A stretch of DNA of 64,000 nucleotides from Proteobacteria bacterium UBA6503. GTDB taxonomy: Bacteria; Pseudomonadota; Alphaproteobacteria; UBA1280; UBA6503. A model generated the notes under the pieces. The model did not search any database. It was not told where the DNA came from and worked only from the letters and a program-made list of their open reading frames with translations. This document shows positions 5,870 to 61,493 of this stretch, piece by piece. Both the position numbers and the translations under genes were made by a program. How positions within the stretch are numbered: position 1 is the first letter of the stretch; each line of letters begins with the position of its first letter. The DNA lies in the NCBI GenBank assembly GCA_002436405.1, contig DJLZ01000001.1, forward strand, positions 782,001 to 846,000, in the 5' to 3' direction.

Positions 5870-5880
5870 AAATTAAAAAC

Positions 5881-5914
5881 AAAACCCCCGCACCAAAAGT
5901 GCGGGGGTTTTTTC
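5881..5914. terminator. Bidirectional rho-independent terminator between rnhB and the convergent small-membrane-protein genes
   Basis: aaaa-cccccgcac-caaaa-gtgcggggg-tttttt, flanked by an A-run and a T-run. Confidence 0.75.
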
Positions 5915-5935
5915 GTTATTTATTCGTCTGGTAGC

Positions 5936-10816: not shown

Positions 10817-11347
10817 ATGGCGTCATCAGCACACACAGCCGCAAGCTCAGCTCAAGAGCAACTATTCAACCTATCAATGGCTGAATCTACACTGTTCTGG
10901 ACAGGGCTTTCATTTTTCGTACTGCTTGTTGTTGTATGGCGCTATGTTGCCCCGGTTGTAAGCGACATCTTGGACCAGCGTTCTGCACGCATTCAAGAAG
11001 ACATGGATAAAGCGGCCTCACTACGTGAGCAAGCGCAACAAGCTTTGGCTGAGTACGAAACTCGCCTTAAGCTTGCTAAAAAAGAAGCACAAGAAATTGT
11101 GGCCCATGCAAAAACTGAAGCAGAAAGCATGATTGCTACTAAAACAGCTGAACTTGAGCGCGACATTGCACGCCGCTCAGAAGAAGCTAAAGTTGCAATC
11201 GAGCAAGCTAAGTCAAAAGCAATGCGCGACGTTCGTGCTGAGCTTGTTGACCTAGCTGTTGTAGCAGCAGAAAAAATCATCACTTCAGAAGTTGATAAGA
11301 AAAAAGCTTCTAAACTGACTGATGATTTGTTGAAGGAAATGCACTAA
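10817..11347 (+). CDS. atpF: F0F1 ATP synthase subunit b (or b')
   Basis: Single N-terminal TM followed by a long charged coiled coil. Position after atpE. Confidence 0.85.
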   Translation: MASSAHTAASSAQEQLFNLSMAESTLFWTGLSFFVLLVVVWRYVAPVVSDILDQRSARIQEDMDKAASLREQAQQALAEYETRLKLAKKEAQEIVAHAKTEAESMIATKTAELERDIARRSEEAKVAIEQAKSKAMRDVRAELVDLAVVAAEKIITSEVDKKKASKLTDDLLKEMH

Positions 11348-11684: not shown

Positions 11685-11716
11685 TAAAAAACCCAGCCAA
11701 CGGCTGGGTTTTTTGT
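11685..11716. terminator. Bidirectional rho-independent terminator between rpmE and cheW
   Basis: aaaaaa-cccagcc-aacg-gctgggt-tttttt. Confidence 0.8.
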
Positions 11717-12451: not shown

Positions 12452-13840
12452 ATGGTTGACCCTTTTAAAACCGCAACTGAACACCTTGAAGATGTTGCCC
12501 TAAGCCGCACTTTTGGCAAGGTTGTGGGGGTTTCTGGGTTGGTGATTCAGTGTGAAGGCCTTGACGATACAGCCATTGGCAGCCGCTGCCTTGTTCAAAC
12601 CCGCCAGAATGATGAATTTACAGCCGAAGTGGTTGGCTACAAAGATGGCCAAGTACTGCTGATGCCATTTGCACCCATCGAAGGCGTGGGTCCAGGTTGC
12701 CGTGTGTACACCCTTTCTGACCAGCCTGTTATTAAAGTGAATAACAGCTTCATTGGCCGTGTGATCGATGGCCTTGGTAACCCTATTGATGGCAAAGGCC
12801 CTATTGCTTTGGGTGGCGAAAGTCGCCAACTAAAAGCTGCGCCACCAGCCCCAGGCATGCGTAAGCCTATTGGTAAAAAGCTTGATGTGGGCGTACGTGC
12901 CCTTAATACATTTATTCCGCTTTGCCGTGGCCAGCGTATGGGTATCTTCTCAGGCTCTGGTGTTGGTAAATCAACCCTGCTGGGGATGATTGCCAAATTT
13001 GCTGATGCAGAAGTGAACGTGATTGCCCTAACCGGTGAGCGTGGCCGTGAGGTGATGGAGTTTATCCATAACAGCCTAGGTGAAGAAGGCTTGCGTAAGT
13101 CAGTTGTGGTTGTAGCAACAGGTGATGAGCCACCACTGATGCGCCGTCAGGCCGCATTTACAGCCATGGCTGTTGCCGAATACTTTCGTGATTGCGGATT
13201 CCAATGTTTGATGATGATGGACTCAGTGACTCGTTTTGCAATGGCTCAGCGTGAAATTGGCCTATCAGCAGGCGAACCACCAACCACCCGTGGTTACACA
13301 CCATCAGTATTCTCAGAGCTTCCACGCCTTCTTGAGCGTGCAGGCACCTGTGAAGGTAAGGGGACAATTACAGGACTGTTTACCGTGCTTGTAGAAGGTG
13401 GAGACCTTGATGAACCTGTGGCGGATGCTGTACGTGGTATTTTGGATGGTCACATCGTGCTCGACCGTGCGCTGGCTGAACAAGGGCACTTTCCCTCAAT
13501 TAATATTCTAAAGTCAGTTTCACGTGCGATGCCGCAGTGTAATACCGCTGAAGAAAATAAATTGGTAACCATGGCTCGCCGTCATTACGCGACTTTTGAC
13601 AACATGGCTGAGCTTATTCGCTTGGGTGCCTACAAGAAGGGCAGCGATAGCGATGTTGATACCGCTATTTTCTATCATGATTCCCTCGAGAAGTTTTTAA
13701 CCCAAGAGCCTGAAGAGTCAGCCTCAATGGATGGGGGCTATAACGCCCTTGCTGAAATTTTGGGTGAGGAAGCACCAGCAACACCAGCTGATGGGCAAGA
13801 TGATACTCAACCTAATGATAAAGCGCCTCAGGAAGCCTAA
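12452..13840 (+). CDS. fliI: Flagellum-specific ATP synthase FliI
   Basis: Walker A 'GSGVGKST'. F1/T3SS-ATPase fold. Followed by fliJ. Confidence 0.93.
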   Translation: MVDPFKTATEHLEDVALSRTFGKVVGVSGLVIQCEGLDDTAIGSRCLVQTRQNDEFTAEVVGYKDGQVLLMPFAPIEGVGPGCRVYTLSDQPVIKVNNSFIGRVIDGLGNPIDGKGPIALGGESRQLKAAPPAPGMRKPIGKKLDVGVRALNTFIPLCRGQRMGIFSGSGVGKSTLLGMIAKFADAEVNVIALTGERGREVMEFIHNSLGEEGLRKSVVVVATGDEPPLMRRQAAFTAMAVAEYFRDCGFQCLMMMDSVTRFAMAQREIGLSAGEPPTTRGYTPSVFSELPRLLERAGTCEGKGTITGLFTVLVEGGDLDEPVADAVRGILDGHIVLDRALAEQGHFPSINILKSVSRAMPQCNTAEENKLVTMARRHYATFDNMAELIRLGAYKKGSDSDVDTAIFYHDSLEKFLTQEPEESASMDGGYNALAEILGEEAPATPADGQDDTQPNDKAPQEA

Positions 13841-17157: not shown

Positions 17158-19175
17158 TGCGCACATTTGTTCTAACAGCTTTAACTTTAAGTGTTTTTGC
17201 AACAGGGCTTCATGCCCTGCCTGAGGTTGCTCATGCTGAAAGCTCACTTGCGAACTTTCGCTCATACCCCCTAGCAAGCCGTGGCTATAACCTAATTGAG
17301 CAGCGCCGTTATGAAGATGCTCGTAAAATGTTTGAGCGTGCCGTACAAATTATGCCCTCAAACATCGACTACCGCTTGCAGCTGGCAAACTTGCTGGTGA
17401 CTGAAAAGCGCTTTGCTAAAGCGCACCAAGTGGTGCTTGAAGGCCTAAAGCTTACACCAAACCACCGTGGTTTGATTGTGCTTGAAGATAATCTACGCAA
17501 AGAACTTGCCGCCCTTGAGGTGAACTTACCTCCATTGCCTGAAGACCCTAACGCCAAGGCACGTTTTATTACGTCGCCGTATACCGAGCGTCAACGTGCT
17601 GTTGTTGAAAGTACAGTGGATGGTCAGCTTGCAGGCTCAAGTTCTGAAAGCTACTGCGAAACATTGCTTACCGATAGCTATAACGACCTCGCCGATAGCG
17701 CTGCCTTAAATGCGGGCTACTGCGCACTAGATGCAAAAGAAAACGCTAAGGCTATTAAACTTTTTGAAAATGCAAGCTACAGCAAAGATAGTGCTATTGC
17801 GGTGCAGGCGTTAAACCAGTTGGGCTTTATTTACACCGATAAAAACCAACACGCTAAAGCCGCCCAATACTGGCGCAAGTCAGTGGCGATGGAGCCGAAC
17901 ACCGGGATTGAGATTAACATTGCCCGTGCGTACCGCCTATCAGGCGAGCTAGAAAAGGCCCATAAGGCCCTTACACCTATTGCTGAGGGTACTGACACTA
18001 CCGCCGAGAATAAAGTGGCTGCAATGCGCGAATTGGCCCTTATGTTTGATGACCAAGACAATACCCCCGAAGCCTATGAAGCAGGCGAAGACATTATTGC
18101 CCTCAAACCTATTGCCTCAGATTATTACTACCAAGCTTTGCGCGCCCAACGTATGGGTGATTATGACCAAGCGCTAGACTACCTAGAGCAGGCCAACCAA
18201 ATGCAGCCCGATACATTTATTTACATGTACAGCCTTGCTTATGCCTACCGAGCCGATGGCCAGTTTGAGAATGCAGCCAACATGTTTGAAAAAGCATTGG
18301 GTAAAGAAGACTCAACCGACCTGCGCCTTGACTATGCCTACAGCCTTAAAGAAATTGGCGAGCGTAAAAAGGCTGCCGAGCAGTTTGTGATTGTGCAAAA
18401 CCAAATTGATGATGTTGAAAAAGAAGACCCTATGCGCCGCGAAGTGCGTGATCTGAACCGTGAATGGACGACTTTCGGCAGCATTAGTTACCGTGATGGT
18501 GTTTACAGCGGTATCGATTCAACAGGTTCGCAGCTTTATGACGATAGCTTCCAGTACGGTATCGAAACTGTATATAGCCCTGAAAAATGGCAGCGTAATG
18601 GCCGCCGTGTTCAGCTTTACGGTCAAATTTTTGCGTCATCTGATAGCAGCACGTTTAACTGGAACCAAGACTCAACCCAAGGGGCTATTGGTGCCCGCGT
18701 TACACCACTGCGAGATACCGAGTGGTACCTTTACATCGCACGTCTTGTGGCACTGGGTGATGATGCTCTAAACGATACGCAACTACGTACGACATTTAGC
18801 AACACCGATGGCTTTGAGTACGAGGCCACCGAAAACGATTGGGAATATAAGTTCTTTAACGTTGATTTGTCATACCTGATTGAAGAAGACCAAATCTTTG
18901 CAACATCTGAAGCCCGCTATGGTCGCTCATACAAACGAGGGACTGACCTTGTGTTGACGCCGCACGTGGTGCTTGCAGGCTCAGTAATTGAAAATGACAT
19001 CCGTGACAGCCAAAACCTTGAGGCAGGCTTAGGTGTGAGTGCTAAGCTTTGGAAAGGGGAAACGGAAACCCAATACCCCGATAAAAGCCTTGAGCTTATT
19101 GTGCAGTGGCGCCAACCCATTAGCAGTGACGATAATAAATCAGGCCCATTTATCCGCCTTGTGGGCCAGTTTTAA
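17157..19175 (+). CDS. nfrA: NfrA-like outer-membrane protein: signal peptide, N-terminal TPR array, C-terminal beta-barrel ending in Phe
   Basis: ATG overlaps the nfrB stop (taATGc). Signal peptide 'MRTFVLTALTLSVFATGLHALPEVAHA'. TPR-like repeats in residues ~40-400. The C-terminal ~270 aa have an alternating hydrophobic pattern ending in '...IRLVGQF'. Confidence 0.7.
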   Translation: MRTFVLTALTLSVFATGLHALPEVAHAESSLANFRSYPLASRGYNLIEQRRYEDARKMFERAVQIMPSNIDYRLQLANLLVTEKRFAKAHQVVLEGLKLTPNHRGLIVLEDNLRKELAALEVNLPPLPEDPNAKARFITSPYTERQRAVVESTVDGQLAGSSSESYCETLLTDSYNDLADSAALNAGYCALDAKENAKAIKLFENASYSKDSAIAVQALNQLGFIYTDKNQHAKAAQYWRKSVAMEPNTGIEINIARAYRLSGELEKAHKALTPIAEGTDTTAENKVAAMRELALMFDDQDNTPEAYEAGEDIIALKPIASDYYYQALRAQRMGDYDQALDYLEQANQMQPDTFIYMYSLAYAYRADGQFENAANMFEKALGKEDSTDLRLDYAYSLKEIGERKKAAEQFVIVQNQIDDVEKEDPMRREVRDLNREWTTFGSISYRDGVYSGIDSTGSQLYDDSFQYGIETVYSPEKWQRNGRRVQLYGQIFASSDSSTFNWNQDSTQGAIGARVTPLRDTEWYLYIARLVALGDDALNDTQLRTTFSNTDGFEYEATENDWEYKFFNVDLSYLIEEDQIFATSEARYGRSYKRGTDLVLTPHVVLAGSVIENDIRDSQNLEAGLGVSAKLWKGETETQYPDKSLELIVQWRQPISSDDNKSGPFIRLVGQF

Positions 19176-19674: not shown

Positions 19675-19715
19675 TAAAAACACCCCAGCTTTTTGCTGGG
19701 GTGTTTTTTGTTTTT
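19675..19715. terminator. Bidirectional rho-independent terminator
   Basis: aaaa-acaccccagc-ttttt-gctggggtgt-tttttg. Serves the GC-rich gene (+) and the convergent minus-strand operon. Confidence 0.8.
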
Positions 19716-27065: not shown

Positions 27066-28511
27066 TTATTTAGCAGCTTGCTGTTTTGGCGAATCATCAA
27101 ACGCCTGAAGCTTATCACGCAGCACTTTAATTGAAATACCAAGCATGTTAGCTGCTTGGTTACGGTTACCACCGCAGTAGTCCAGCGTACCCAGAATAAG
27201 CTCTTTTTCAACTTCGTGCATTTGGCGGCCAATCATGCCCCCAGTATTTGTAATGCCGCCTTGTTGGTAGCCGCCTTGTGCCGCCGCATAAGCGCCTGTG
27301 GCACCCATGTTTGGGTTAGGGGCTTGCTGTTGTGGGGTTTGTTGTGCAGCTTCTGCCGGTGCTTCAACTTCAGCAGGTGCATTCGCCTCGGCCGCTTCAC
27401 GGCTCATGGCTGAAATTTCAATGTTTTCGGCTTTAAGTTCTTCACCTGTCATCAGCAAAATAGCACGGTGGAGGGTGTTCTCAAGCTCGCGCACGTTACC
27501 TTTCCAGTAGGCTGAGGTCAGCTTTTCTTTGGCATCATCAGCAATGGTAATGCGAGGTAGCTCGTATTGCTCAGCAAATTTTTGGGCAAAGTGTTCACTT
27601 AGGGCCAAAATATCGGCAGGGCGTTCACGTAGGGCTGGTAGCTCGATAGCGGCTACGTTCAGACGGAAGTATAAATCCTCACGGAAGTTCCCTTCACGGA
27701 CGTGATCTTCAAGGTTACGGTTGGTGGTGGCCACCAAACGAATATCAACAGGCACGGGCTTTGTTGCACCCACAGGGTCAATCACACGTTCCTGAATAGC
27801 ACGGAGTAGTTTTGCCTGTAGTGACAAATCCATCTCTGAAATCTCATCAAGCAATAGCGTGCCGCCATCAGCTTGCTGGAACTTACCTAGGCGTTTGTTT
27901 ACAGCACCTGAAAAAGCACCTTTTTCGTGGCCAAAAAGCTCACTCTCAAGAAGGTTTTCAGGGATAGCTGCACAGTTAACGCTAATAAACGGGGCATTTT
28001 TACGTGGGCTGTTATCGTGAATAAAGCGGCTTAGCACCTCTTTACCCGTACCAGACTCACCACGCAGCAGAACAGTTGCGTTTGACGCTGCAAACTTTTT
28101 AGCAAGGGCTAGCATAGCAGTGGTTTTGTCATCACGTGCAATTGGGCCGCCTTGGTTTGGGTTATCTGCAAGTTCGTCAAGAAGTTCGCCAAGTTGTTTT
28201 TCATCGATAGGGGTGGTGAGGTATTCAATTGCGCCTAGACGGATTGACATCACGGCGTTTTGCACGCTATCAGCGCCACCAACACTTACGACAGGTGTAT
28301 TAAGGCGTGCTTCGTTGTAAGCCCCAAAGAAGTCTGTTTGTTCAAGGTCGGCGCTTAAAAAGGCCATGTCTACACGTTGTTGGCACAGAACTTCAACAGC
28401 AGAGGTAATGTCCTTTGCCGTCAGCACGTCCATCTTCAGCTTTTTGGCATACTTCGCCACAGCGCCTGAAGCGCCAGCAAGATCACCAATAAGAAGAATT
28501 TGTGCAGTCAT
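27066..28511 (-). CDS. flbD: Sigma-54-dependent flagellar transcriptional activator (FlbD/FleQ family)
   Basis: FleQ-like N-domain. AAA+ sigma-54 interaction domain ('GESGTGKE', GAFTGA-type 'GHEKGAFSGA'). C-terminal Fis-type HTH. Confidence 0.9.
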   Translation of the reverse strand: MTAQILLIGDLAGASGAVAKYAKKLKMDVLTAKDITSAVEVLCQQRVDMAFLSADLEQTDFFGAYNEARLNTPVVSVGGADSVQNAVMSIRLGAIEYLTTPIDEKQLGELLDELADNPNQGGPIARDDKTTAMLALAKKFAASNATVLLRGESGTGKEVLSRFIHDNSPRKNAPFISVNCAAIPENLLESELFGHEKGAFSGAVNKRLGKFQQADGGTLLLDEISEMDLSLQAKLLRAIQERVIDPVGATKPVPVDIRLVATTNRNLEDHVREGNFREDLYFRLNVAAIELPALRERPADILALSEHFAQKFAEQYELPRITIADDAKEKLTSAYWKGNVRELENTLHRAILLMTGEELKAENIEISAMSREAAEANAPAEVEAPAEAAQQTPQQQAPNPNMGATGAYAAAQGGYQQGGITNTGGMIGRQMHEVEKELILGTLDYCGGNRNQAANMLGISIKVLRDKLQAFDDSPKQQAAK

Positions 28512-33460: not shown

Positions 33461-33500
33461 ACCCAACCTGAAGCATAAAATTATTGTTATAGTGAATGCT

Positions 33501-33516
33501 AGCACAAACCGTGCCA
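33501..33516 (-). promoter_or_regulatory. Sigma-54 (-24/-12) promoter of the fliF-fliG-fliH-fliN-motA-flbD operon
   Basis: Minus strand reads TGGCAC-ggttt-gTGCt (GG and GC spaced exactly as in the TGGCAC-N5-TTGCA consensus), ~30 nt upstream of the fliF ATG. Confidence 0.7.
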
Positions 33517-33650
33517 ACCCACCAAGAGCGGGGCACTTAAAGTGTGGTATTTAGGGTGCAAGGGGTGTGGTATGATTACCTCAATTGATATTCCTGAAGA
33601 AGGCACTATAATAAACATATGCCCTATGCAGGGGTGGCATTTTTCAGAGA

Positions 33651-35144: not shown

Positions 35145-35179
35145 GGGAAGGGGCGCATCAGCGCCCCTTCTTCTTTTTG
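35145..35179 (+). terminator. Rho-independent terminator after flagellin 1
   Basis: gaaggggcgc-atca-gcgccccttc followed by a T-run. Confidence 0.8.
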
Positions 35180-35308
35180 CATTTTGTTTGGGCGACTAAG
35201 CTCCTCTGCTTGTGTTCGTGTATTGATATACACTTCACACGGCGCAAAGAAACTTATTCATCCCAAACAAAGATGCAAAAAACATCTTTCCCTCCTGACT
35301 TCAGATTT

Positions 35309-35324
35309 TGGCATGGTTCATGCA
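35309..35324 (+). promoter_or_regulatory. Sigma-54 promoter of flagellin 2
   Basis: TGGCAT-ggttc-aTGCA matches the TGGCAC-N5-TTGCA spacing exactly, 64 nt upstream of the ATG. Confidence 0.7.
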
Positions 35325-39018: not shown

Positions 39019-39079
39019 TCTTAATAACTAGTTTAGAAATTTAATTTAAAACAATACAACCGAAGGGAGCTTCAGGCCC

Positions 39080-39544
39080 ATGAATGAGCCAAAGAATGCA
39101 GCCAAAGAATATCTTGAGCGTCAGGTACAAAGTGCCTCTCCTGTCGAGCGTGTTGTTTTAGCATACGATGGGGCAATCCGCTTTTTGCTAGCGGCACGCC
39201 GTGCTATTGACGAAGGAAACATTGAGGTTCGCTTTAAGAATAATAAAAAAGCGGCGGACATTATCTCATACCTAATGGAAACACTAGACATGGAGCAGGG
39301 CGGTGAAGTTGCTGAACGCCTACAGCGTTTGTACTTCTACATGCTTCGTAAACTTGTTGAGGTTGATGTTAAAAACTCAACCGAAGCCATTGATGATGTG
39401 ATTGGTCACCTTAAAAAGCTACGTGCCTCGTGGGAACAGCTTTCACGCGGTGGCGGAGCATCAGCGCAGCCGGCCCCAAAAGGTGAGGCTGGCAGCGCTG
39501 ACACAGATGAGCGTGCGCCAGTTAGAATCTCCGCAACGGCTTAA
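39080..39544 (+). CDS. fliS: Flagellin-specific chaperone FliS
   Basis: FliS four-helix bundle signature ('AYDGAIRFLLAARRAIDEGN...RLQRLYFYMLRKLVEVDVKN'). Confidence 0.88.
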   Translation: MNEPKNAAKEYLERQVQSASPVERVVLAYDGAIRFLLAARRAIDEGNIEVRFKNNKKAADIISYLMETLDMEQGGEVAERLQRLYFYMLRKLVEVDVKNSTEAIDDVIGHLKKLRASWEQLSRGGGASAQPAPKGEAGSADTDERAPVRISATA

Positions 39545-39611
39545 GTGCTCTTCGTAAAGGTGTTATATCTGACTTAAAAGACACAGCGCCTTTATTAAAA
39601 GCGATTAATAT

Positions 39612-39646
39612 AAAAAACACCCTTCAATTGAGGGGTGTTTTTATTG
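39612..39646 (+). terminator. Rho-independent terminator after fliS
   Basis: aacaccct-tcaattg-aggggtgtt followed by a T-run. Confidence 0.7.
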
Positions 39647-39706
39647 TTATAGTGCTTAAGTACTCGTATCGAGTTTAAAAGAATTTATAAAACGGATTAT
39701 TGACGC

Positions 39707-40235: not shown

Positions 40236-40267
40236 AAAAAGCCGCCCAAGTTTGGGCGGCTTTTTGT
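40236..40267 (+). terminator. Rho-independent terminator after fliL
   Basis: aaaaa-gccgcccaa-g-tttgggcggc-ttttt. Confidence 0.8.
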
Positions 40268-45110: not shown

Positions 45111-47324
45111 ATGGAAATTGATCAGGAAATTTTAGATGAGTTTCATACAGAGGCTGAGGAAAGCCTTGATGCCCTTGAAGCTGACCTGATTACCCTTGAA
45201 GGCGTTGCCGAAGCGGGTGACTCTGACCCTGACCTTATTGACCGTCTATTCCGTGTATTGCACACCCTAAAAGGTGGTGCGGGCTTTCTAGGCCTTGAGA
45301 AAATGAACAAGCTTGCCCACGCAGGTGAAAACTTGCTGGATGAAGTGCGTGCGGGCAATGTGCCTATTACTACCGAGGTAATGGATGCCTTGCTTGAAAC
45401 TAATGACACGCTAAAAGACCTTTTGGATTGTTCAAAAACAGGTGAAAGCCCTGATAATATTGACTTTAAGCCCCTTGCAGATCGTCTTGATAAGCTTTCA
45501 GCCCCTGGTGGCGTAGCTGCACCTGAGGCACCAAAAGCTGAGGAGCCACAAACTGAAGAAACTGCAGCCCCAGCAGTTGAAACACCTGAGCCTACAGGCA
45601 TTGAAATTAACGAAGACCTTCTTGCTGAGATTCAAGCTGATGACCGCCTATCTGGCCCTGCTGGTGATGATGACGCTGTGCCAACACCAGAAGCCCCAGC
45701 TATTGAAATTAATGAAGACCTTCTTGCTGAGATTCAGGCTGATGACCGCCTAACAGGCCCCGCTGGTGAAGACGATGCTGTGCCAACACCAGAAGCCCCA
45801 GCTATTGAGATTAACGAAGAGCTTCTTGCTGAAATTCAAGCCGATGACCGCCTGACGGGCCCTGCAAGCAGCGATGATGACATTGAAACTGTTGAAGCTG
45901 AACCTGTTACCCCTAAACAGGACGCTAAAACAGAAGAGCCAACAAAAAAAGCAGAACAACCTAAGGCCGAAGCCTTTGACCGTCGTGGCGCTGACCGCCG
46001 TGACCGTGTGGGCGACCGCCGCAAAAAACCAGGCCGCCGCGACCATGACCCTAAAGAGGTAACAATCCGTGTGGATACTGCACGTCTAGATGCAGTAATG
46101 AACCTAGTGGGTGAGCTTGTGCTTGCACGTAACACACTTGTGCGCCAGATGGAGCGTGAGGATACCATTGAGCGCCTACAGGGCAGCGAATATCAAGGGA
46201 TTATTGAGTCAACGCTAGAGTCGCTAACACGTGTTTCAAAAGACTTGCAAATGTCAGTACTGCGCACACGTATGCAACCGATTAAGCGTGTATTTGATAA
46301 AATTCCACGTCAGGTACGTGAGCTTAAAAACAAACTTGGTAAAGAAATTAACCTTGTGATTGAAGGCGAGGGCACCGAGGTTGACCGTAGCTTGGTTGAA
46401 GAGCTTGCCGATCCAATGGTCCACCTTATCCGTAATGCTCTAGACCATGGCCTTGAAGGCCCCGAAGAACGTACCGAAGTTGGTAAAAAGTCAGAAGGCA
46501 CCTTGGCTATCCGTGCGTTTTACGAAGGGAACAACGTTGTGATTCAGGTGCAGGATGATGGCCGTGGGATTGACCCTATGCGCATCCGTGCCAAAGCCGT
46601 TGAAAAAGGCCTACTGACTGAAGAGGCTGCACATGCCCTACCAGATAGCGAAGCTATTAAGCTGATTATGGCAGCGGGTTTCTCGACAGCTGAAACCATT
46701 AGTGATGTTTCAGGCCGTGGTGTGGGTATGGACGTTGTGAACGACAAAATTAACAAGATTAAAGGCACCATTGAGCTTGAGTCTCAGTTTGGTGCGGGCA
46801 CAACAGTTTCAATTTACCTGCCCCTTACACTTGCTATTGTGCAGGCCCTTATTGTTGAGGCGAATGACGAAGGCTTTGCTGTACCAATTGGCACAGTGTC
46901 TGAGGTTATTCAGTTCCGCCCGCTTATGTGCCACAAGGTAAACAACGAAGACGCCATTGAACTGCGTGAAGAAATTGTGCCAATCAAATACCTTTCTGAG
47001 CTTACATCAAAAGGTAAGAAAGACTATACCGAAGGCTTGAAGGATAAAAACGAGCAAAACGGTTACGTGATGATTGTGCGTGACGGCAGCCTTACAGTTG
47101 GTCTTGTGATTGATGAGCTTCTGGGCCAAGAAGAAGCCGTTGTAAAATCAATTACCAGCGCGTTTGACTATAACCCTGCAATCTCAGGTGCAACAATCTC
47201 CGGCGATGGTAAAGTGCATATGATTTTGGATGTGCCATACTTCATGCGTGATATTGTGCAAAAGCAAAAGTCACTCACCGCCGAAGCCCGTAAAGCTGCC
47301 ATGAAACTTGTGGCATCAGAATAG
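45111..47324 (+). CDS. cheA: Chemotaxis histidine kinase CheA with a 3 x 34 aa tandem-repeat linker in place of a canonical P2 domain
   Basis: P1 HPt ('RVLHTLKGGAGFLG'), P3, P4 ('DHGLEGPEER', 'DDGRGID', 'GRGVGMD') and P5 CheW-like domains. Confidence 0.93.
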   Translation: MEIDQEILDEFHTEAEESLDALEADLITLEGVAEAGDSDPDLIDRLFRVLHTLKGGAGFLGLEKMNKLAHAGENLLDEVRAGNVPITTEVMDALLETNDTLKDLLDCSKTGESPDNIDFKPLADRLDKLSAPGGVAAPEAPKAEEPQTEETAAPAVETPEPTGIEINEDLLAEIQADDRLSGPAGDDDAVPTPEAPAIEINEDLLAEIQADDRLTGPAGEDDAVPTPEAPAIEINEELLAEIQADDRLTGPASSDDDIETVEAEPVTPKQDAKTEEPTKKAEQPKAEAFDRRGADRRDRVGDRRKKPGRRDHDPKEVTIRVDTARLDAVMNLVGELVLARNTLVRQMEREDTIERLQGSEYQGIIESTLESLTRVSKDLQMSVLRTRMQPIKRVFDKIPRQVRELKNKLGKEINLVIEGEGTEVDRSLVEELADPMVHLIRNALDHGLEGPEERTEVGKKSEGTLAIRAFYEGNNVVIQVQDDGRGIDPMRIRAKAVEKGLLTEEAAHALPDSEAIKLIMAAGFSTAETISDVSGRGVGMDVVNDKINKIKGTIELESQFGAGTTVSIYLPLTLAIVQALIVEANDEGFAVPIGTVSEVIQFRPLMCHKVNNEDAIELREEIVPIKYLSELTSKGKKDYTEGLKDKNEQNGYVMIVRDGSLTVGLVIDELLGQEEAVVKSITSAFDYNPAISGATISGDGKVHMILDVPYFMRDIVQKQKSLTAEARKAAMKLVASE
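45600..45905 (+). repeat. Three tandem 102-nt (34-aa) in-frame repeats inside cheA
   Basis: Units begin at 45600, 45702 and 45804 ('IEINEDLLAEIQADDRLSGPAGDDDAVPTPEAPA'). The third unit is degenerate. Confidence 0.9.
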
Positions 47325-51579: not shown

Positions 51580-51604
51580 ATTTTGCACTTTCAGGCGGTT
51601 AAAG

Positions 51605-51654
51605 CCTTTAGCTTGTACTCGTGTATTATTCATACACATCGTACTGCACTAAAG
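51605..51654. repeat. Structured intergenic palindromic element, copy A
   Basis: Outer inverted repeat ctttag/ctaaag flanking the core TGTATTATTCATACAC, itself a TGTAT/ATACA palindrome. Lies between the convergent TPR-protein and fliP genes. Confidence 0.65.
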
Positions 51655-51728
51655 ACTTTACGCATCCCAAATATCATAAAGTGAGCTGCCTGCAATAAGC
51701 TGCAAGCTTTGCTCGGCGAAGGGTTTAG

Positions 51729-59554: not shown

Positions 59555-61366
59555 ATGGCTGACGCACAAGTAACACCCCAAGACCTACCTCAAAATGCTT
59601 CAGATGCTCTATCTGTGACGGGCAAGCGTTGGCAATGGCGCCACAATAAAATGGCCCACGGTATTGGTCTAGCCCAGCGCCTTCAGGTGCCTGAAATTGT
59701 TGGCCAAATTTTGGCCTCACGCATCGAAACACCCGAAGAAGGCCGCATCTTCCTTGAGCCTAACCTACGTAACCTACCTGACCCGCTTGAACTAAAAGAC
59801 ATGGATAAAGCGGTTGAGCGTTTGGTCAAAGCCGTAACCGATAAAGAACAAATCACCATTTTTGGCGATTACGACGTTGACGGCAGCTGCGGTAGCGCCC
59901 TGCTGATGAAATACTTCGGTTGGCTTGGGTGTGGCCCGCATCTTTACATCCCCGACCGTATGAGTGAAGGCTACGGCCCAAACCCTGGCGCGATGGAAAA
60001 AATCCACGAAGCGGGTGGCAAGGTGATTGTTACTGTTGATACGGGTAGCCTTGCTTTTGATGCCTTTAACCGTGCAAAAGAACTTGGCCTTGATGTTGTG
60101 ATTACCGATCACCACCAAACCCAAAGCGATTTTCCGCCGTGTGTAGCCTTGGTCAACCCTAACCGTATGGATGAAACCTCAGACCTTACAAACCTAGCAG
60201 GCGCAGGCGTAGCCTTTATGCTTGTGATGGCCGTAAACCGTGGCCTACGTGAAGCAAACTATTTTGAAGGTAAGCAAGAGCCTGACCTACGCCAACTGCT
60301 TGACCTTGTGGCTGTTGCCAGTGTGTGCGACATGGTGCCTCTAACTGGTATTAACCGTATTCTGGTTGATCGTGGCCTTAAGGTTATGGGCCAGCGCAGT
60401 AATATGGGCTTAACCGCATTGGCTGATGTTTCAGGCCTTGATACCAAGCCTGGGACATACCACGCAGGCTTTATGGTGGGTCCCCGTATTAACGCAGGCG
60501 GCCGTATTGGCGCGTGCGACCTTGGCGCAAACTTGCTACTAACCCAAGTGCCAGAAGAAGCCCGCTCGATGGCGGCGCACCTGAATGCCCTTAACGAAGA
60601 ACGTAAAGAAATTGAGCAACAAGTACTAACCCAAGCGCTTGATAAAGCCGATGAAATTATGAAGCAAAACCCAGCCTCACTTGTGGTGGCAGGCGAGGGG
60701 TGGCACCCCGGTGTGATTGGTATTGTGGCCGCTCGCATCAAAGAAGTACACCACCGCCCGATTTTTGTAGTCAGCTTTGATGAAGACGGTGTGGGCAAAG
60801 GCTCAGGCCGCTCAATTACTGGTATTGATTTAGGTAAGGCTGTGATTTCAGCCAAAGAAGCTGGCTTGCTAGAGTCTGGCGGCGGGCACAAAATGGCCGC
60901 TGGCCTTACCGTGTTGAAAGACAAATTTAACCACTTTGTAAAACACCTAGAAGAGCACATCCAAGCCCAAGTTGATAAAGTTGGCGCCGATGTGTTTACC
61001 CCATGCCTTAAGGTTGATGGTACGCTAAGCCCTAAAGGTGCAACCCTTGCCCTACTTGATGATGTTGAAAAACTAGAGCCTTACGGCGCAGGCAACCCTG
61101 AACCACGCTTTGTACTGCCAAGCGTACGTGCCGACGGTATGCGTGTTGTGGGTGAGAATCACCTGAAGTTTCGTCTGACTGATGGCGCAGGCTCTATTGA
61201 TGTAATTGCCTTCCGTGCCATGGCAACGCCCCTTGGCCCATGGCTGATGAACCTGCAAGGCCGCACCGCCACTTTCTGCGGTAAGCTACGCCGCAACGTA
61301 TGGCAAAACCGCGAAAGCATCCAGCTTCAACTTGATGACGCTTATGATGGCAGCTGGGGCTCTTAA
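59555..61366 (+). CDS. recJ: Single-stranded-DNA-specific exonuclease RecJ
   Basis: DHH motifs ('IFGDYDVDGSCGSALL', 'VITDHHQ') plus DHHA1 and an OB-fold C-terminus. Confidence 0.92.
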   Translation: MADAQVTPQDLPQNASDALSVTGKRWQWRHNKMAHGIGLAQRLQVPEIVGQILASRIETPEEGRIFLEPNLRNLPDPLELKDMDKAVERLVKAVTDKEQITIFGDYDVDGSCGSALLMKYFGWLGCGPHLYIPDRMSEGYGPNPGAMEKIHEAGGKVIVTVDTGSLAFDAFNRAKELGLDVVITDHHQTQSDFPPCVALVNPNRMDETSDLTNLAGAGVAFMLVMAVNRGLREANYFEGKQEPDLRQLLDLVAVASVCDMVPLTGINRILVDRGLKVMGQRSNMGLTALADVSGLDTKPGTYHAGFMVGPRINAGGRIGACDLGANLLLTQVPEEARSMAAHLNALNEERKEIEQQVLTQALDKADEIMKQNPASLVVAGEGWHPGVIGIVAARIKEVHHRPIFVVSFDEDGVGKGSGRSITGIDLGKAVISAKEAGLLESGGGHKMAAGLTVLKDKFNHFVKHLEEHIQAQVDKVGADVFTPCLKVDGTLSPKGATLALLDDVEKLEPYGAGNPEPRFVLPSVRADGMRVVGENHLKFRLTDGAGSIDVIAFRAMATPLGPWLMNLQGRTATFCGKLRRNVWQNRESIQLQLDDAYDGSWGS

Positions 61367-61388
61367 TTGTTCTTAGGGCGATAAAACT

Positions 61389-61437
61389 CCCTTTCTTGAG
61401 TTTATGTATTATTCATACACGTCACTCTGCGAAAGGG
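61389..61437. repeat. Structured intergenic palindromic element, copy B
   Basis: Outer inverted repeat ccctttc/gaaaggg flanking the same core TGTATTATTCATACAC. Lies between the convergent recJ and ATP-grasp genes. Confidence 0.65.
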
Positions 61438-61493
61438 AATTTTCTCATCCCTAATCCCTGCTTAAGAAAAGTCTCCACACATATTGTGCATAA

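What the first reader, a model, noticed from the sequence alone, without database searches (positions are those of the whole stretch)
51605..51654. ~50 bp structured intergenic element present in two copies (second copy at 61389-61437)
Both copies share the 16-bp core TGTATTATTCATACAC, which contains an internal TGTAT/ATACA palindrome. In each copy a 6-7 bp outer inverted repeat (ctttag/ctaaag or ccctttc/gaaaggg) sits 9-11 nt away on each side. The outer repeats differ in sequence but keep complementarity. That covariation argues for a conserved RNA or DNA secondary structure. Both copies sit between convergent gene ends (TPR protein/fliP and recJ/ATP-grasp). The element could be a REP/MITE-like repeat, a shared bidirectional terminator or stabiliser, or a small RNA.
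Basis: seen in the sequence. Interest (0 to 1): 0.6.

Follow-up and report, generated by a model that had tools for sequence, protein, structure and literature searches.

The report
Strand-specific rod-hairpin intergenic repeat family
The two 50-bp look-alikes are the inner parts of a roughly 90-110-base repeated DNA element (three copies in this window) that folds into a long hairpin on one strand only, most likely a small REP/REPIN-like mobile repeat of an uncultured marine bacterium, which makes it interesting but not extraordinary.

Summary
The shared 16-mer is the apical hairpin of an ~86-108-nt unit made of five nested helices (P0-P4). Copies lie at 51584-51680 and 61367-61463, and a third, missed copy lies at 35174-35281. 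All three are on the minus strand. Among 4 distinct copies, 96% of the pair cells form standard pairs and 11 of 32 pairs show compensatory changes (0/500 shuffles). Unpaired motifs are conserved: 5' TTTGGG-A-TGR, GCAG, GA, CAAG and 3' CGCCC. In 8 of 8 elements, including relatives from other species, the same sense strand folds 7-16 kcal/mol better than its complement, whatever its orientation to neighbouring genes. So a single strand (ssDNA or RNA) is what is selected.

Close relatives have empty sites, or related rods with a different inner module or the opposite orientation at the same intergenic spots. The element has no U-tract, and copy 3 sits next to a genuine terminator and is antisense to both flanking flagellin genes. 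It matches no Rfam family and meets neither the REP tag definition nor the attC definition.

Best reading (~0.5): a new REPIN/compound-REP-like, non-autonomous repeat that spreads through a folded single strand. Main rival (~0.25): a host-selected RNA element. Genome-wide copy number and any partner transposase could not be tested.

The parts
51584..51680 (-). Copy 1 (c1), full rod on the sense (minus) strand. P0 pairs 51666-51671 with 51590-51595. P1 pairs 51662-51664 with 51596-51598. P2 pairs 51648-51660 with 51600-51612. P3 pairs 51641-51644 with 51615-51618. P4 pairs 51632-51637 with 51621-51626. The loop is 51627-51631.
   Evidence: 107.3 bits; sense -33.2 vs antisense -20.2 kcal/mol.
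61367..61463 (-). Copy 2 (c2), full rod. P0 pairs 61449-61454 with 61373-61378 (TTAGGG/CCCTAA). P2 pairs 61431-61443 with 61383-61395. P4 pairs 61415-61420 with 61404-61409. The whole 127-nt intergenic stretch 61367-61493 is absent in an 88%-RecJ relative, where the two stop codons overlap.
   Evidence: 104.6 bits; -38.5 vs -26.9.
35174..35281 (-). The core unit is 35187-35271, with apex GTGTAT-ATCA-ATACAC. The rod extends to 108 nt through extra flanking pairing. It is antisense to both flanking flagellin genes.
   Evidence: 65.5 bits, E 2e-13; I5; -54.9 kcal/mol, z -10.2.
51621..51637 (-). On the sense strand it reads GTGTAT-GAATA-ATACAC. It is flanked by the conserved purine internal loop GA-N / R-A.
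   Evidence: The loop differs in c3 (ATCA), in strain L002 (ACCTT) and in L169 (AACAA).
35145..35178 (+). Context, not part of the element. This is a canonical intrinsic terminator of flagellin gene 1 (GC-rich 12-bp stem plus T-tract), immediately before c3.
35309..35324 (+). Context, not part of the element. This is a sigma-54-type promoter-like sequence, TGGCATGGTTCATGCA, upstream of flagellin gene 2 and ~40 nt beyond c3. It is conserved in relatives L168 and L175.
   Evidence: Read directly from the sequence. Matching it to the GG-N10-GC consensus rests on my own knowledge.

Best explanation
The element is one member of a family of ~90-120-nt rod-shaped hairpin repeats. The family populates intergenic DNA at gene 3' ends in an uncultured marine alphaproteobacterium-like lineage.

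Each unit has conserved, slightly asymmetric ends: sense-strand 5' TTTGGG-A-TGR-R and 3' AYCGCCCAAA. When folded, these ends form a base helix with a bulged A, a U.G pair and a G/A mismatch. Next comes a 13-bp A/U-rich helix whose sequence drifts but stays paired. Then there are two conserved purine-rich internal loops (GCA/AA and GA-N/R-A). At the tip is an exchangeable apical module. In relatives it is GUAG-N5/6-CUAC.

Shown here: the multicopy family, the structure and its covariation, the selection on one strand only, the presence/absence and orientation differences at orthologous sites, and the lack of terminator features.

Inferred: the family is non-autonomous mobile or selfish DNA of the REP/REPIN kind. 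It would be copied through a folded single DNA strand recognised by a strand-specific enzyme acting in trans, such as a RAYT/IS200-like HUH transposase. Where it is co-transcribed it would also give a stable hairpin in mRNA 3' regions as a by-product.
For: Family:
- There are three copies in the window.
- A 71%-RecJ relative carries three related rods, L045 a, b and c.
- An 85%-FliF relative (L168) carries one rod, and a 79% relative (L169) carries a partial one.

Structure:
- 32 pairs are 96.1% paired across 4 distinct copies, and 11 pairs have changes on both sides (0/500 shuffles).
- Controls with the partner columns slid by 1-3 positions give 32-52% paired.

One strand only:
- The sense strand folds better in 8/8 elements, by 7-16 kcal/mol, with 30 vs 10 G.U pairs. 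DNA parameters give the same result.
- In the curated helices there are 17 wobble cells on the sense strand, against 1 cell that would be a wobble on the other strand.
- This holds for elements in either orientation to their neighbours (L045 a and c on +, b on -) and for c3, L168 and L169, which are antisense to both flanking genes. Read-through transcription or replication strand therefore cannot be the common selecting factor.

Gain and loss:
- The recJ/RimK site is empty in an 88% relative.
- The TPR/fliP gap is only 9-18 nt in two ~70% relatives.
- The same gap holds a rod of another subtype, in the opposite orientation, in L045.
- In another strain (96.3% identical overall), copy 1 carries 14/86 changes.

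Literature:
- REPs lie mostly downstream of ORFs between convergent or co-directional genes and often show G-T pairing. Some are nested in long palindromes (PMC3733652).
- REPIN hairpins show conserved ends and compensatory changes in between (PMC3116915).
Against: - No transposase (RAYT or other) was seen in the roughly 170 kb of related sequence sampled (gene calls).
- No consistent target-site duplication was found.
- The three copies are quite diverged from each other (57/97 identical for c1 vs c2). That looks unlike a recently active, high-copy family.
- A strict-pattern scan of 185,579 species genomes gave only one chance hit, and a looser scan of JGI metagenomes gave 28 chance hits. So there is no sign of many further copies, although I do not know whether either collection holds this organism.
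- The c3 site is occupied in the same orientation in three species, and pairing is preserved through compensatory changes even in the flanking extension. That pattern is what host-level selection on a fixed element would give.
- REP tags are not met.
Confidence: 0.5

Rival explanations
1. The element is a host-selected structured RNA. The sense strand would be transcribed as part of 3' UTRs or as an antisense/independent transcript. The rod, with its conserved purine internal loops and its bulged-A/U.G/G-A base, would be a binding or processing platform. It could be a 3' stabiliser, an RNase III or other nuclease site, or a protein dock, possibly tied to flagellar gene expression.
For: - Covariation with conserved unpaired nucleotides is the classical signature of a functional RNA.
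- All wobble pairs are G.U on one strand.
- c1 and c2 lie 54 and 36 nt downstream of minus-strand genes in the sense orientation.
- The site between the two flagellin genes is occupied in the same orientation in three species. Compensatory changes extend beyond the family-conserved unit.
- Every copy found lies in or next to the flagellar cluster, but only such regions were sampled.
Against: - c3, L168 and L169 are antisense to both neighbours, with no gene upstream on their strand for >10 kb.
- No promoter-like site was found upstream of c3, and the sequences upstream of the copies are not alike.
- L045 b and c each face away from the nearest gene.
- Orthologous sites are empty in close relatives.
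- The apical module is swapped between species.
- There is no Rfam match.
Confidence: 0.25
2. The element is an independent small-RNA gene family (sRNA paralogues) with its own promoter and terminator.
For: On the sense strand, c3 is followed after an A-rich linker by the palindromic flagellin terminator. The scan also scores that terminator on the minus strand. This gives a typical sRNA layout.
Against: - c1 and c2 have no terminator-like site after them on the sense strand.
- No promoter-like site was found upstream, and the upstream sequences are not alike.
- The terminator tails in L168 and L169 are poor.
Confidence: 0.07
3. The element is a shared bidirectional intrinsic terminator between convergent genes.
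For: c1 and c2 are the only strong structures between convergent genes. The long helix has an A-rich 5' arm and a U-rich 3' arm, like this genome's A-tract/stem/T-tract terminators. The model picks those terminators up weakly.
Against: - There is no U-tract after the stem.
- Folding is strongly one-stranded.
- c3 lies just after a real terminator.
- In L168 the arm polarity is reversed, with a U-rich 5' arm.
- A terminator does not need conserved internal-loop and terminal motifs.
Confidence: 0.05
4. The element is a double-stranded DNA protein-binding site. For example, the palindrome GTGTAT-N5-ATACAC could be an operator or enhancer for a sigma-54 activator or a nucleoid protein.
For: The centre of c3 lies ~90 bp upstream of a sigma-54-like promoter for flagellin 2. 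That is the usual distance for an enhancer-binding site (plus my own knowledge). The window encodes a sigma-54 activator.
Against: - c1 and c2 lie between gene ends with no promoter nearby.
- A dsDNA site would not show strand-asymmetric wobble pairs.
- A dsDNA site would not need 30+ covarying pairs.
- The palindrome is replaced by a different apex in L168 at the same site.
Confidence: 0.04
5. The similarity is coincidental.
For: An exact 16-mer repeat alone is expected about once in 64 kb.
Against: The alignment is gapless over 86-97 nt. A third copy scores E = 2e-13. Homologues occur in other species, and the covariation statistics are strong.
Confidence: 0.01

Closest known systems
REPINs (REP doublets forming hairpins; Bertels & Rainey 2011, PMC3116915)
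   Same: - Both are ~100-nt symmetric hairpins in extragenic space.
- Both have conserved end regions with a less conserved middle that keeps pairing through compensatory changes.
- Both are predicted to fold in ssDNA or mRNA.
- Both are proposed non-autonomous mobile DNA.
   Different: The ends here are not themselves REP palindromes and carry no GTAG tag. The apex is as conserved as the ends within this genome. Copies seen so far are few and diverged. No RAYT has been seen.
GTAG-/CGTC-tagged REPs, and REPs nested in long palindromes (Di Nocera et al. 2013, PMC3733652)
   Same: - Both lie downstream of ORFs, between convergent or co-directional genes and close to stop codons.
- Both show frequent G-T pairing in stems.
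- Both have subfamilies with alternative complementary stem residues.
- In Anabaena and Halothiobacillus, REPs sit inside longer conserved palindromes, which resembles an inner module inside outer arms.
- CGTC REPs predominate in Alphaproteobacteria.
   Different: - The window's apical hairpin has a 6-bp stem, against 8-9 bp for CGTC REPs.
- CGTC occurs only in c2, and 3' of the hairpin on the + strand. The paper's wording ('terminal' tag, tail at the end) and my recollection of the Neisseria dRS3 sequence suggest the tag lies 5', but its side was not verified.
- In relatives, GTAG is present but is itself paired with CTAC rather than being an unpaired tag.
- The unit is 3-4 times longer than a REP.
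Rod-like palindromic MITE-type repeats (ERIC/IRU, Correia/NEMIS, RUP, Rickettsia RPE). This comparison is from my own knowledge and from the review PMC2229807, listed but not read.
   Same: Both are ~100-150-nt elements that fold as long imperfect hairpins. Both are intergenic and often co-transcribed, with orientation-dependent RNA effects.
   Different: Those families have sequence-conserved terminal inverted repeats and (Correia, ERIC) TA target duplications. Here the long helix covaries, and no consistent duplication was found. No sequence similarity was tested beyond Rfam and plasmid BLAST.
Integron attC sites (from my own knowledge)
   Same: In both, structure is conserved while sequence varies. 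Both have function-relevant folding of one specific DNA strand, with conserved bulges or mismatches near the base.
   Different: There are no R''/R' boxes (RYYYAAC / GTTRRRY). The elements are not in cassette arrays, no integrase is nearby, and they sit in core flagellar and housekeeping intergenic regions.

Membership tests
REP (GTAG/CGTC super-families, PMC3733652) | Short (20-40 bp) single stem-loop | tested here: not met
   The unit is 86-108 nt with five nested helices. Only the 17-nt apex is REP-sized.
REP (GTAG/CGTC super-families, PMC3733652) | Unpaired GTAG or CGTC tetranucleotide tag at one end; CGTC type has an 8-9 bp stem, a 4-5 nt loop and a CCA-like tail | tested here: not met
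   On the sense strand the apex is preceded by GACG (c2, L002, L169), GATG (c1) or GAAG (c3). So CGTC appears only 3' of the hairpin on the + strand; whether that is the opposite side from the published layout was not verified. The stem is 6 bp and there is no CCA tail. In the L045 and L168 elements, GTAG is paired with CTAC.
REP (GTAG/CGTC super-families, PMC3733652) | Located downstream of ORFs, between convergent or co-directional genes | tested here: met
   c1 and c2 lie between convergent genes, 7-11 nt after a stop codon. c3 lies between co-directional genes, after the upstream gene's terminator.
REP (GTAG/CGTC super-families, PMC3733652) | Dispersed family of tens to thousands of copies per genome | not testable with these tools
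   There are 3 copies in ~80 kb of this species. Strict-pattern collection scans found no more copies.
REPIN (PMC3116915) | [quoted passage not shown] | tested here: inconclusive
   A hairpin with conserved ends and a compensating interior is present. But the ends are not REP palindromes with a tag.
REPIN / REP | Cognate RAYT (Y1 HUH transposase) gene in the genome, often flanked by the repeats | not testable with these tools
   No Y1 transposase Pfam hit appears among the called genes of the loci fetched. This covers only a small part of each genome.
MITE | Sequence-conserved terminal inverted repeats | tested here: inconclusive
   The termini TTTGGG...CCCAAA are conserved and inverted. However, the two ends differ systematically (ATGAG vs CGAT), and the adjoining arms covary instead of being conserved.
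MITE | Target-site duplication flanking the element | tested here: inconclusive
   In the filled vs empty comparison at the recJ site, a possible CTTAA repeat is confounded by the two stop codons and by 30 extra nt. No direct repeat flanks c1 or c3.
Integron attC site | R''/R' core boxes (RYYYAAC...GTTRRRY) and position at cassette boundaries near an integrase | tested here: not met
   The termini are TTTGGG.../...CCCAAA, and the flanks are flagellar or housekeeping genes. The box consensus is from my own knowledge.
Intrinsic (rho-independent) terminator | G+C-rich hairpin directly followed by a U-tract | tested here: not met
   The terminator scan finds nothing at c1 or c2, and finds a separate true terminator beside c3.
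Any Rfam 15 RNA family | Score at or above the family gathering threshold | tested here: not met
   There are no hits in the window or in relatives' loci at gathering thresholds. Only generic long-hairpin (miRNA-precursor-like) sub-threshold matches appear.

The most novel reading that the evidence does not exclude
The rods are not decaying selfish DNA. They are a host-maintained, strand-specific structured nucleic-acid element. The conserved base motif (bulged A, U.G, G/A) and the purine internal loops would dock an as yet unknown protein. The protein could be a new type of ssDNA-hairpin-recognising mobilisation enzyme unrelated to RAYTs. Alternatively the element could be a cis-acting antisense or 3' RNA module that tunes expression of the flagellar cluster, where every copy seen so far resides.
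Probability: 0.15. Interest if true: 0.6.

Novelty: new variant of a known kind. Interest (0 to 1): 0.35.

Why it matters
If the main reading holds, this adds a structurally well-defined, tag-less family to the REP/REPIN world, from a poorly sampled marine alphaproteobacterial lineage. The clean one-strand signature would make it a good test case for how such repeats are recognised and copied.

If the RNA reading holds, it would be a new cis-element associated with flagellar gene clusters.

Practically, these rods and the second repeat family noted in passing mark hot spots of strain-level variation and recombination. They can confuse annotation through spurious small ORFs.

Tried and rejected
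1. Rfam. I ran gathering thresholds on the window and on 4 relatives' loci, and E-value mode on c1, c3 and the second repeat family. Nothing meaningful came back.
2. Genome-contig scan with GGGATG-N14-16-GCNGNNNGANGTGTAT-N4-5-ATACA. The only hit was one chance match in a Bacteroides MAG, which the model did not score. In hindsight the pattern was too strict, because it fixed the apex.
3. Metagenome-contig scan with an apex-free pattern. It gave 28 hits, none recognised by the model.
4. Viral-contig scan. The pattern was too loose and returned more than 120 hits, which I presumed to be chance and did not pursue or score with the model.
5. Plasmid BLAST of c3 and of the second family found nothing.
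6. Small-peptide idea. The conserved GGGATG could start an ORF of 8-11 codons in c1-c3. The peptides are not conserved beyond what the DNA homology gives. There is no consistent Shine-Dalgarno sequence, and the L045 elements have no ATG, so I rejected this.
7. CsrA-site idea. GGGAUG resembles RGGAUG, but the GGG is base-paired in P0 rather than in a loop, and no gene start follows, so I rejected this.
8. K-turn idea for the GA/GA loop. The geometry is wrong because there is no 3-nt bulge 5' of the G.A pairs.
9. Sigma-54 or sigma-28 promoter inside the element. The spacing does not fit.
10. Outer stems as independent local terminators hit by an insertion. I rejected this because the arms of different copies are homologous (e.g. 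c2 AAAATTCCCTTTC vs L045b AAAATTGCTTTTC) and conserved termini lie outside them.
11. The 128-nt strain-specific insertion in L172 does not fold as a rod and belongs to a different family.

Full report
**1. Observation**

The 16-mer TGTATTATTCATACAC occurs exactly twice on the + strand, at 51622-51637 and 61405-61420. Both sites lie between convergent gene ends. Copy 1 lies between a TPR protein gene and fliP. Copy 2 lies between recJ and a RimK/ATP-grasp gene.

An exact 16-mer repeat is not in itself unusual in 64 kb. The window holds four independent pairs of repeated sequence of 16 nt or more, and shuffles give 0-3. What makes the pair significant is a gapless alignment over 86-97 nt (57/97 identical) in which the differences are concentrated in base-paired positions.

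**2. Anatomy**

Both copies fold into a single rod.
- P0 is a base helix, TTTGGG/CCCAAA-like. It is TTAGGG/CCCTAA in copy 2, which is a compensated change.
- A bulged A follows.
- P1 is a 3-bp helix that starts with an invariant U.G pair.
- A G/A mismatch follows.
- P2 is a 13-bp A/U-rich helix.
- An internal loop GCA/AA follows.
- P3 is a 4-bp helix. Three of its four pairs differ on both sides between copies.
- An internal loop GA-N/R-A follows.
- P4 is the 6-bp apical hairpin that contains the 16-mer.

I built a covariance model from the two copies. It found a third copy at 35187-35271 on the minus strand (65.5 bits, E = 2e-13). Its apex is GTGTAT-ATCA-ATACAC and its stems are again different but paired. 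With flanking pairing, that rod is 108 nt long and folds at -54.9 kcal/mol, z = -10. No other rod-like inverted repeat lies in the window's intergenic DNA.

I counted pairs on four distinct sequences: c1, c2, c3, and the c1 orthologue of a second strain. Of the pair cells, 96.1% are standard pairs, and 11 of 32 pairs have changes on both sides. No shuffle out of 500 reached the observed value on four of the five measures, and 2/500 did for pair types. Sliding the partner columns by 1-3 positions drops pairing to 32-52%.

**3. One strand matters**

All three window copies have the same orientation. The minus (sense) strand folds much better than the plus strand.
- With RNA parameters the values are -33/-39/-54 against -20/-27/-40 kcal/mol.
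- With DNA parameters the same ranking holds.

In the curated helices there are 17 wobble cells, all G.U/U.G on the sense strand. Only one cell would be a wobble on the other strand.

The same holds for every homologue I could find in other species. In 8 of 8 elements the sense strand is favoured by 7-16 kcal/mol, with 30 against 10 G.U pairs. "Sense" is defined here by sequence homology, with the GGGATG-type end taken as 5'. The elements occur in both orientations relative to their neighbours. So the asymmetry belongs to the element and not to the replication or transcription strand of the locus.

**4. Context**

The window is a flagellar gene cluster of an uncultured marine bacterium. RecJ homologues point to Alphaproteobacteria, and one cluster member is labelled "Magnetococcales bacterium" MAG.

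c1 and c2 start 11 and 7 nt after the stop codons of plus-strand genes. They lie 54 and 36 nt after the stops of minus-strand genes. Neither intergenic region has a terminator-like site apart from the rod, and the rods lack U-tracts.

c3 sits between two co-directional flagellin genes. It is 10 nt beyond a canonical terminator (35145-35172 plus a T-tract) and about 40 nt before a sigma-54-like promoter sequence (TGGCATGGTTCATGCA). It is antisense to both genes. No gene lies upstream of c3 on its own strand for more than 10 kb.

**5. Relatives**

The collection scans were unproductive (see paragraph 10). Walking from window proteins to orthologous loci was productive.

- *recJ site.* An 88%-RecJ relative has no element. 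The recJ and RimK-like stop codons overlap (TTAA), so the window carries 127 extra nt there.
- *TPR/fliP site, empty.* Two ~70% relatives have only 9-18 nt in this gap, and no rods in 14 kb each.
- *L045 (71% RecJ).* This relative has three ~102-nt rods. One lies in the TPR/fliP gap in the opposite orientation to c1. Two lie after recJ, facing each other. They share the scaffold: TTTGGG(T/A)G..., the AAAATTG.TTTTC arm, CAAG, and AT(C)GCCC.AA. They carry a different, longer inner module capped by GUAG-N6-CUAC.
- *c3 site, L168 and L169.* An 85%-FliF relative (L168) has a 120-nt rod in the same orientation as c3, with a GUAG-N5-CUAC apex (-52.4 against -36.5 kcal/mol). The pairing that flanks the conserved unit has changed in a compensated way relative to c3. 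A 79% relative (L169) has a contig that begins inside the element, with GTGTAT-AACAA-ATACAC.
- *c3 site, L045 species.* This species has no rod there. It has a member of a different repeat family instead.
- *Second strain.* In a strain that is 96.3% identical over 14.4 kb, c1 carries 14 changes in 86 nt. This is one of the two densest spots in that stretch. Several of these changes (T-A to T.G, A-T to G.T) keep or create sense-strand pairs. c2 carries one change.

**6. What it is**

The data show a family of structured repeats. They are gained, lost, re-oriented and re-modelled at intergenic sites near gene 3' ends. They are selected for folding of one particular strand. They have conserved unpaired or non-canonical nucleotides at the base and at two internal loops. 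This profile is closest to REP/REPIN-type elements.

The literature fits this reading. REPs are found mainly downstream of ORFs between convergent or co-directional genes. They often show G-T pairs, have subfamilies with alternative complementary stem residues, and in some genomes sit inside longer conserved palindromes (PMC3733652). REPINs are ~100-nt hairpins with conserved ends and compensatory changes in between (PMC3116915).

A strand-specific, orientation-independent constraint is what a single-strand-specific mobilising enzyme would impose. That is established knowledge for IS200/IS605 TnpA and for RAYTs, not something shown here. I therefore rate [quoted passage not shown] as the most likely explanation (about 0.5).

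The steps that are inferred rather than shown are the mobility mechanism, the enzyme, and any effect on neighbouring transcripts.

**7. Rivals**

A host-selected RNA element (about 0.25) is favoured by three points. The unpaired purines are conserved. The flagellin-site element persists across three species with compensated changes. And c1 and c2 have a 3'-UTR-like position.

It is disfavoured by several others. c3, L168 and L169 are antisense. L045 b and c face away from their nearest genes. Sites are empty in close relatives. The apex is swapped between species. No promoter-like site was found upstream, and the sequences upstream of the copies are not alike.

A stand-alone sRNA, a bidirectional terminator and a dsDNA operator/enhancer are each contradicted by tested features. 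Chance is excluded.

**8. Membership**

The element does not meet the definitions of the families it resembles.
- *REP:* it is too long, and it has no unpaired GTAG/CGTC tag in the published layout.
- *REPIN:* its ends are not REPs.
- *attC:* there are no R boxes and no cassette context.
- *Intrinsic terminator:* there is no U-tract.
- *Rfam:* it matches no family.
- *MITE:* the criteria (terminal inverted repeats, target duplication) are inconclusive.

So it works like a REPIN or rod-type palindromic repeat but cannot be filed as a member of a named family.

**9. Novelty and score**

This is a previously undescribed family as far as Rfam 15, plasmid BLAST and the literature searches show. It belongs to a well-known general kind, small structured intergenic repeats. 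It has a distinctive architecture and an unusually clean single-strand signature. I rate it "new variant of a known kind", with interest 0.35.

The most novel reading not excluded is a host-maintained protein-docking RNA/ssDNA module, or a new mobilisation system. I give that about 0.15 probability and interest 0.6 if true.

**10. Limits**

I do not know whether those collections contain this organism, so the absence of further copies is weak evidence.

All sampled sequence (~80 kb of this species and roughly 90 kb of relatives) is in or next to the flagellar cluster, because look-ups could only be anchored on window genes. Copy number, genome-wide orientation, a partner gene and expression all remain untested.

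Noticed in passing
L172:19870-19975 (absent at window ~11735 and in L173/L174); L002:19296-19400 (absent in L001); L175:4880-5020 (-); L045:13190-13280, 13450-13520, 13590-13654: A second, unrelated ~105-125-nt repeat family has the conserved core GGCACTGCGAGCC-GAAAG-CGAGTAGGRCGGCATCCC, followed by a variable hairpin and GGTTGCCGATGATGAAAC. Two copies are strain-specific insertions within the window's own species, so small repeats appear to be currently mobile in this lineage. In L172 the insert is flanked by a ~22-nt imperfect direct duplication. There is no Rfam family; only weak C/D-box-like sub-threshold hits appear. The family also shares the hexamer CATCCC with the antisense end of the rod family.
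   Followed up: partly
window 35309-35324 (+), 33498-33513 (-), 33544-33559 (+): These are sigma-54-type promoter-like sequences (TGGCA-N-TGC spacing). They lie upstream of flagellin 2 and of fliF, with one more in the fliF/flagellin-1 divergent region. They are conserved in relatives L168, L169 and L175. A sigma-54 activator gene lies at 27066-28511.
   Followed up: partly
window 5871-5921, 11686-11714, 19676-19708, 39606-39649, 40236-40265, 35145-35172: This genome's ordinary terminators are near-perfect palindromes of the form A-tract / G+C stem / T-tract, which looks bidirectional. The rod model picks them up weakly (10-20 bits), because the rod's long helix also has an A-rich 5' arm and a T-rich 3' arm.
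   Followed up: partly
window 61255-61390 (3' end of recJ) compared with L002: This is a second hot spot of divergence between the two strains, with 14-15 differences per 86 nt against 3.7% on average. It lies directly next to copy 2, while copy 2 itself is almost unchanged. It may be the edge of a recombination tract.
   Followed up: no
window 45612-45806: The exact repeated segments 45612-45634/45714-45736 and 45675-45706/45777-45808 lie 102 nt apart. This indicates a tandem duplication of a ~102-nt (34-codon) unit, presumably inside a coding region.
   Followed up: no
window 10998-11015 / 59796-59813 and 18406-18422 / 61056-61072: These are exact 18-mer and 17-mer direct repeats between unrelated regions. 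They are apparently chance matches, and they illustrate that a 16-mer repeat alone is not evidence in a window of this size.
   Followed up: partly
window 39047-39160: This inverted repeat has 23-nt arms (74% complementary) 68 nt apart. It spans the fliD/fliS junction and the start of fliS. It was not examined further.
   Followed up: no
L041:2320-2330: In the 88%-RecJ relative, the convergent recJ and RimK-like genes share overlapping stop codons (TTAA) with no intergenic DNA at all. This shows how compact these genomes are where no repeat has been inserted.
   Followed up: yes
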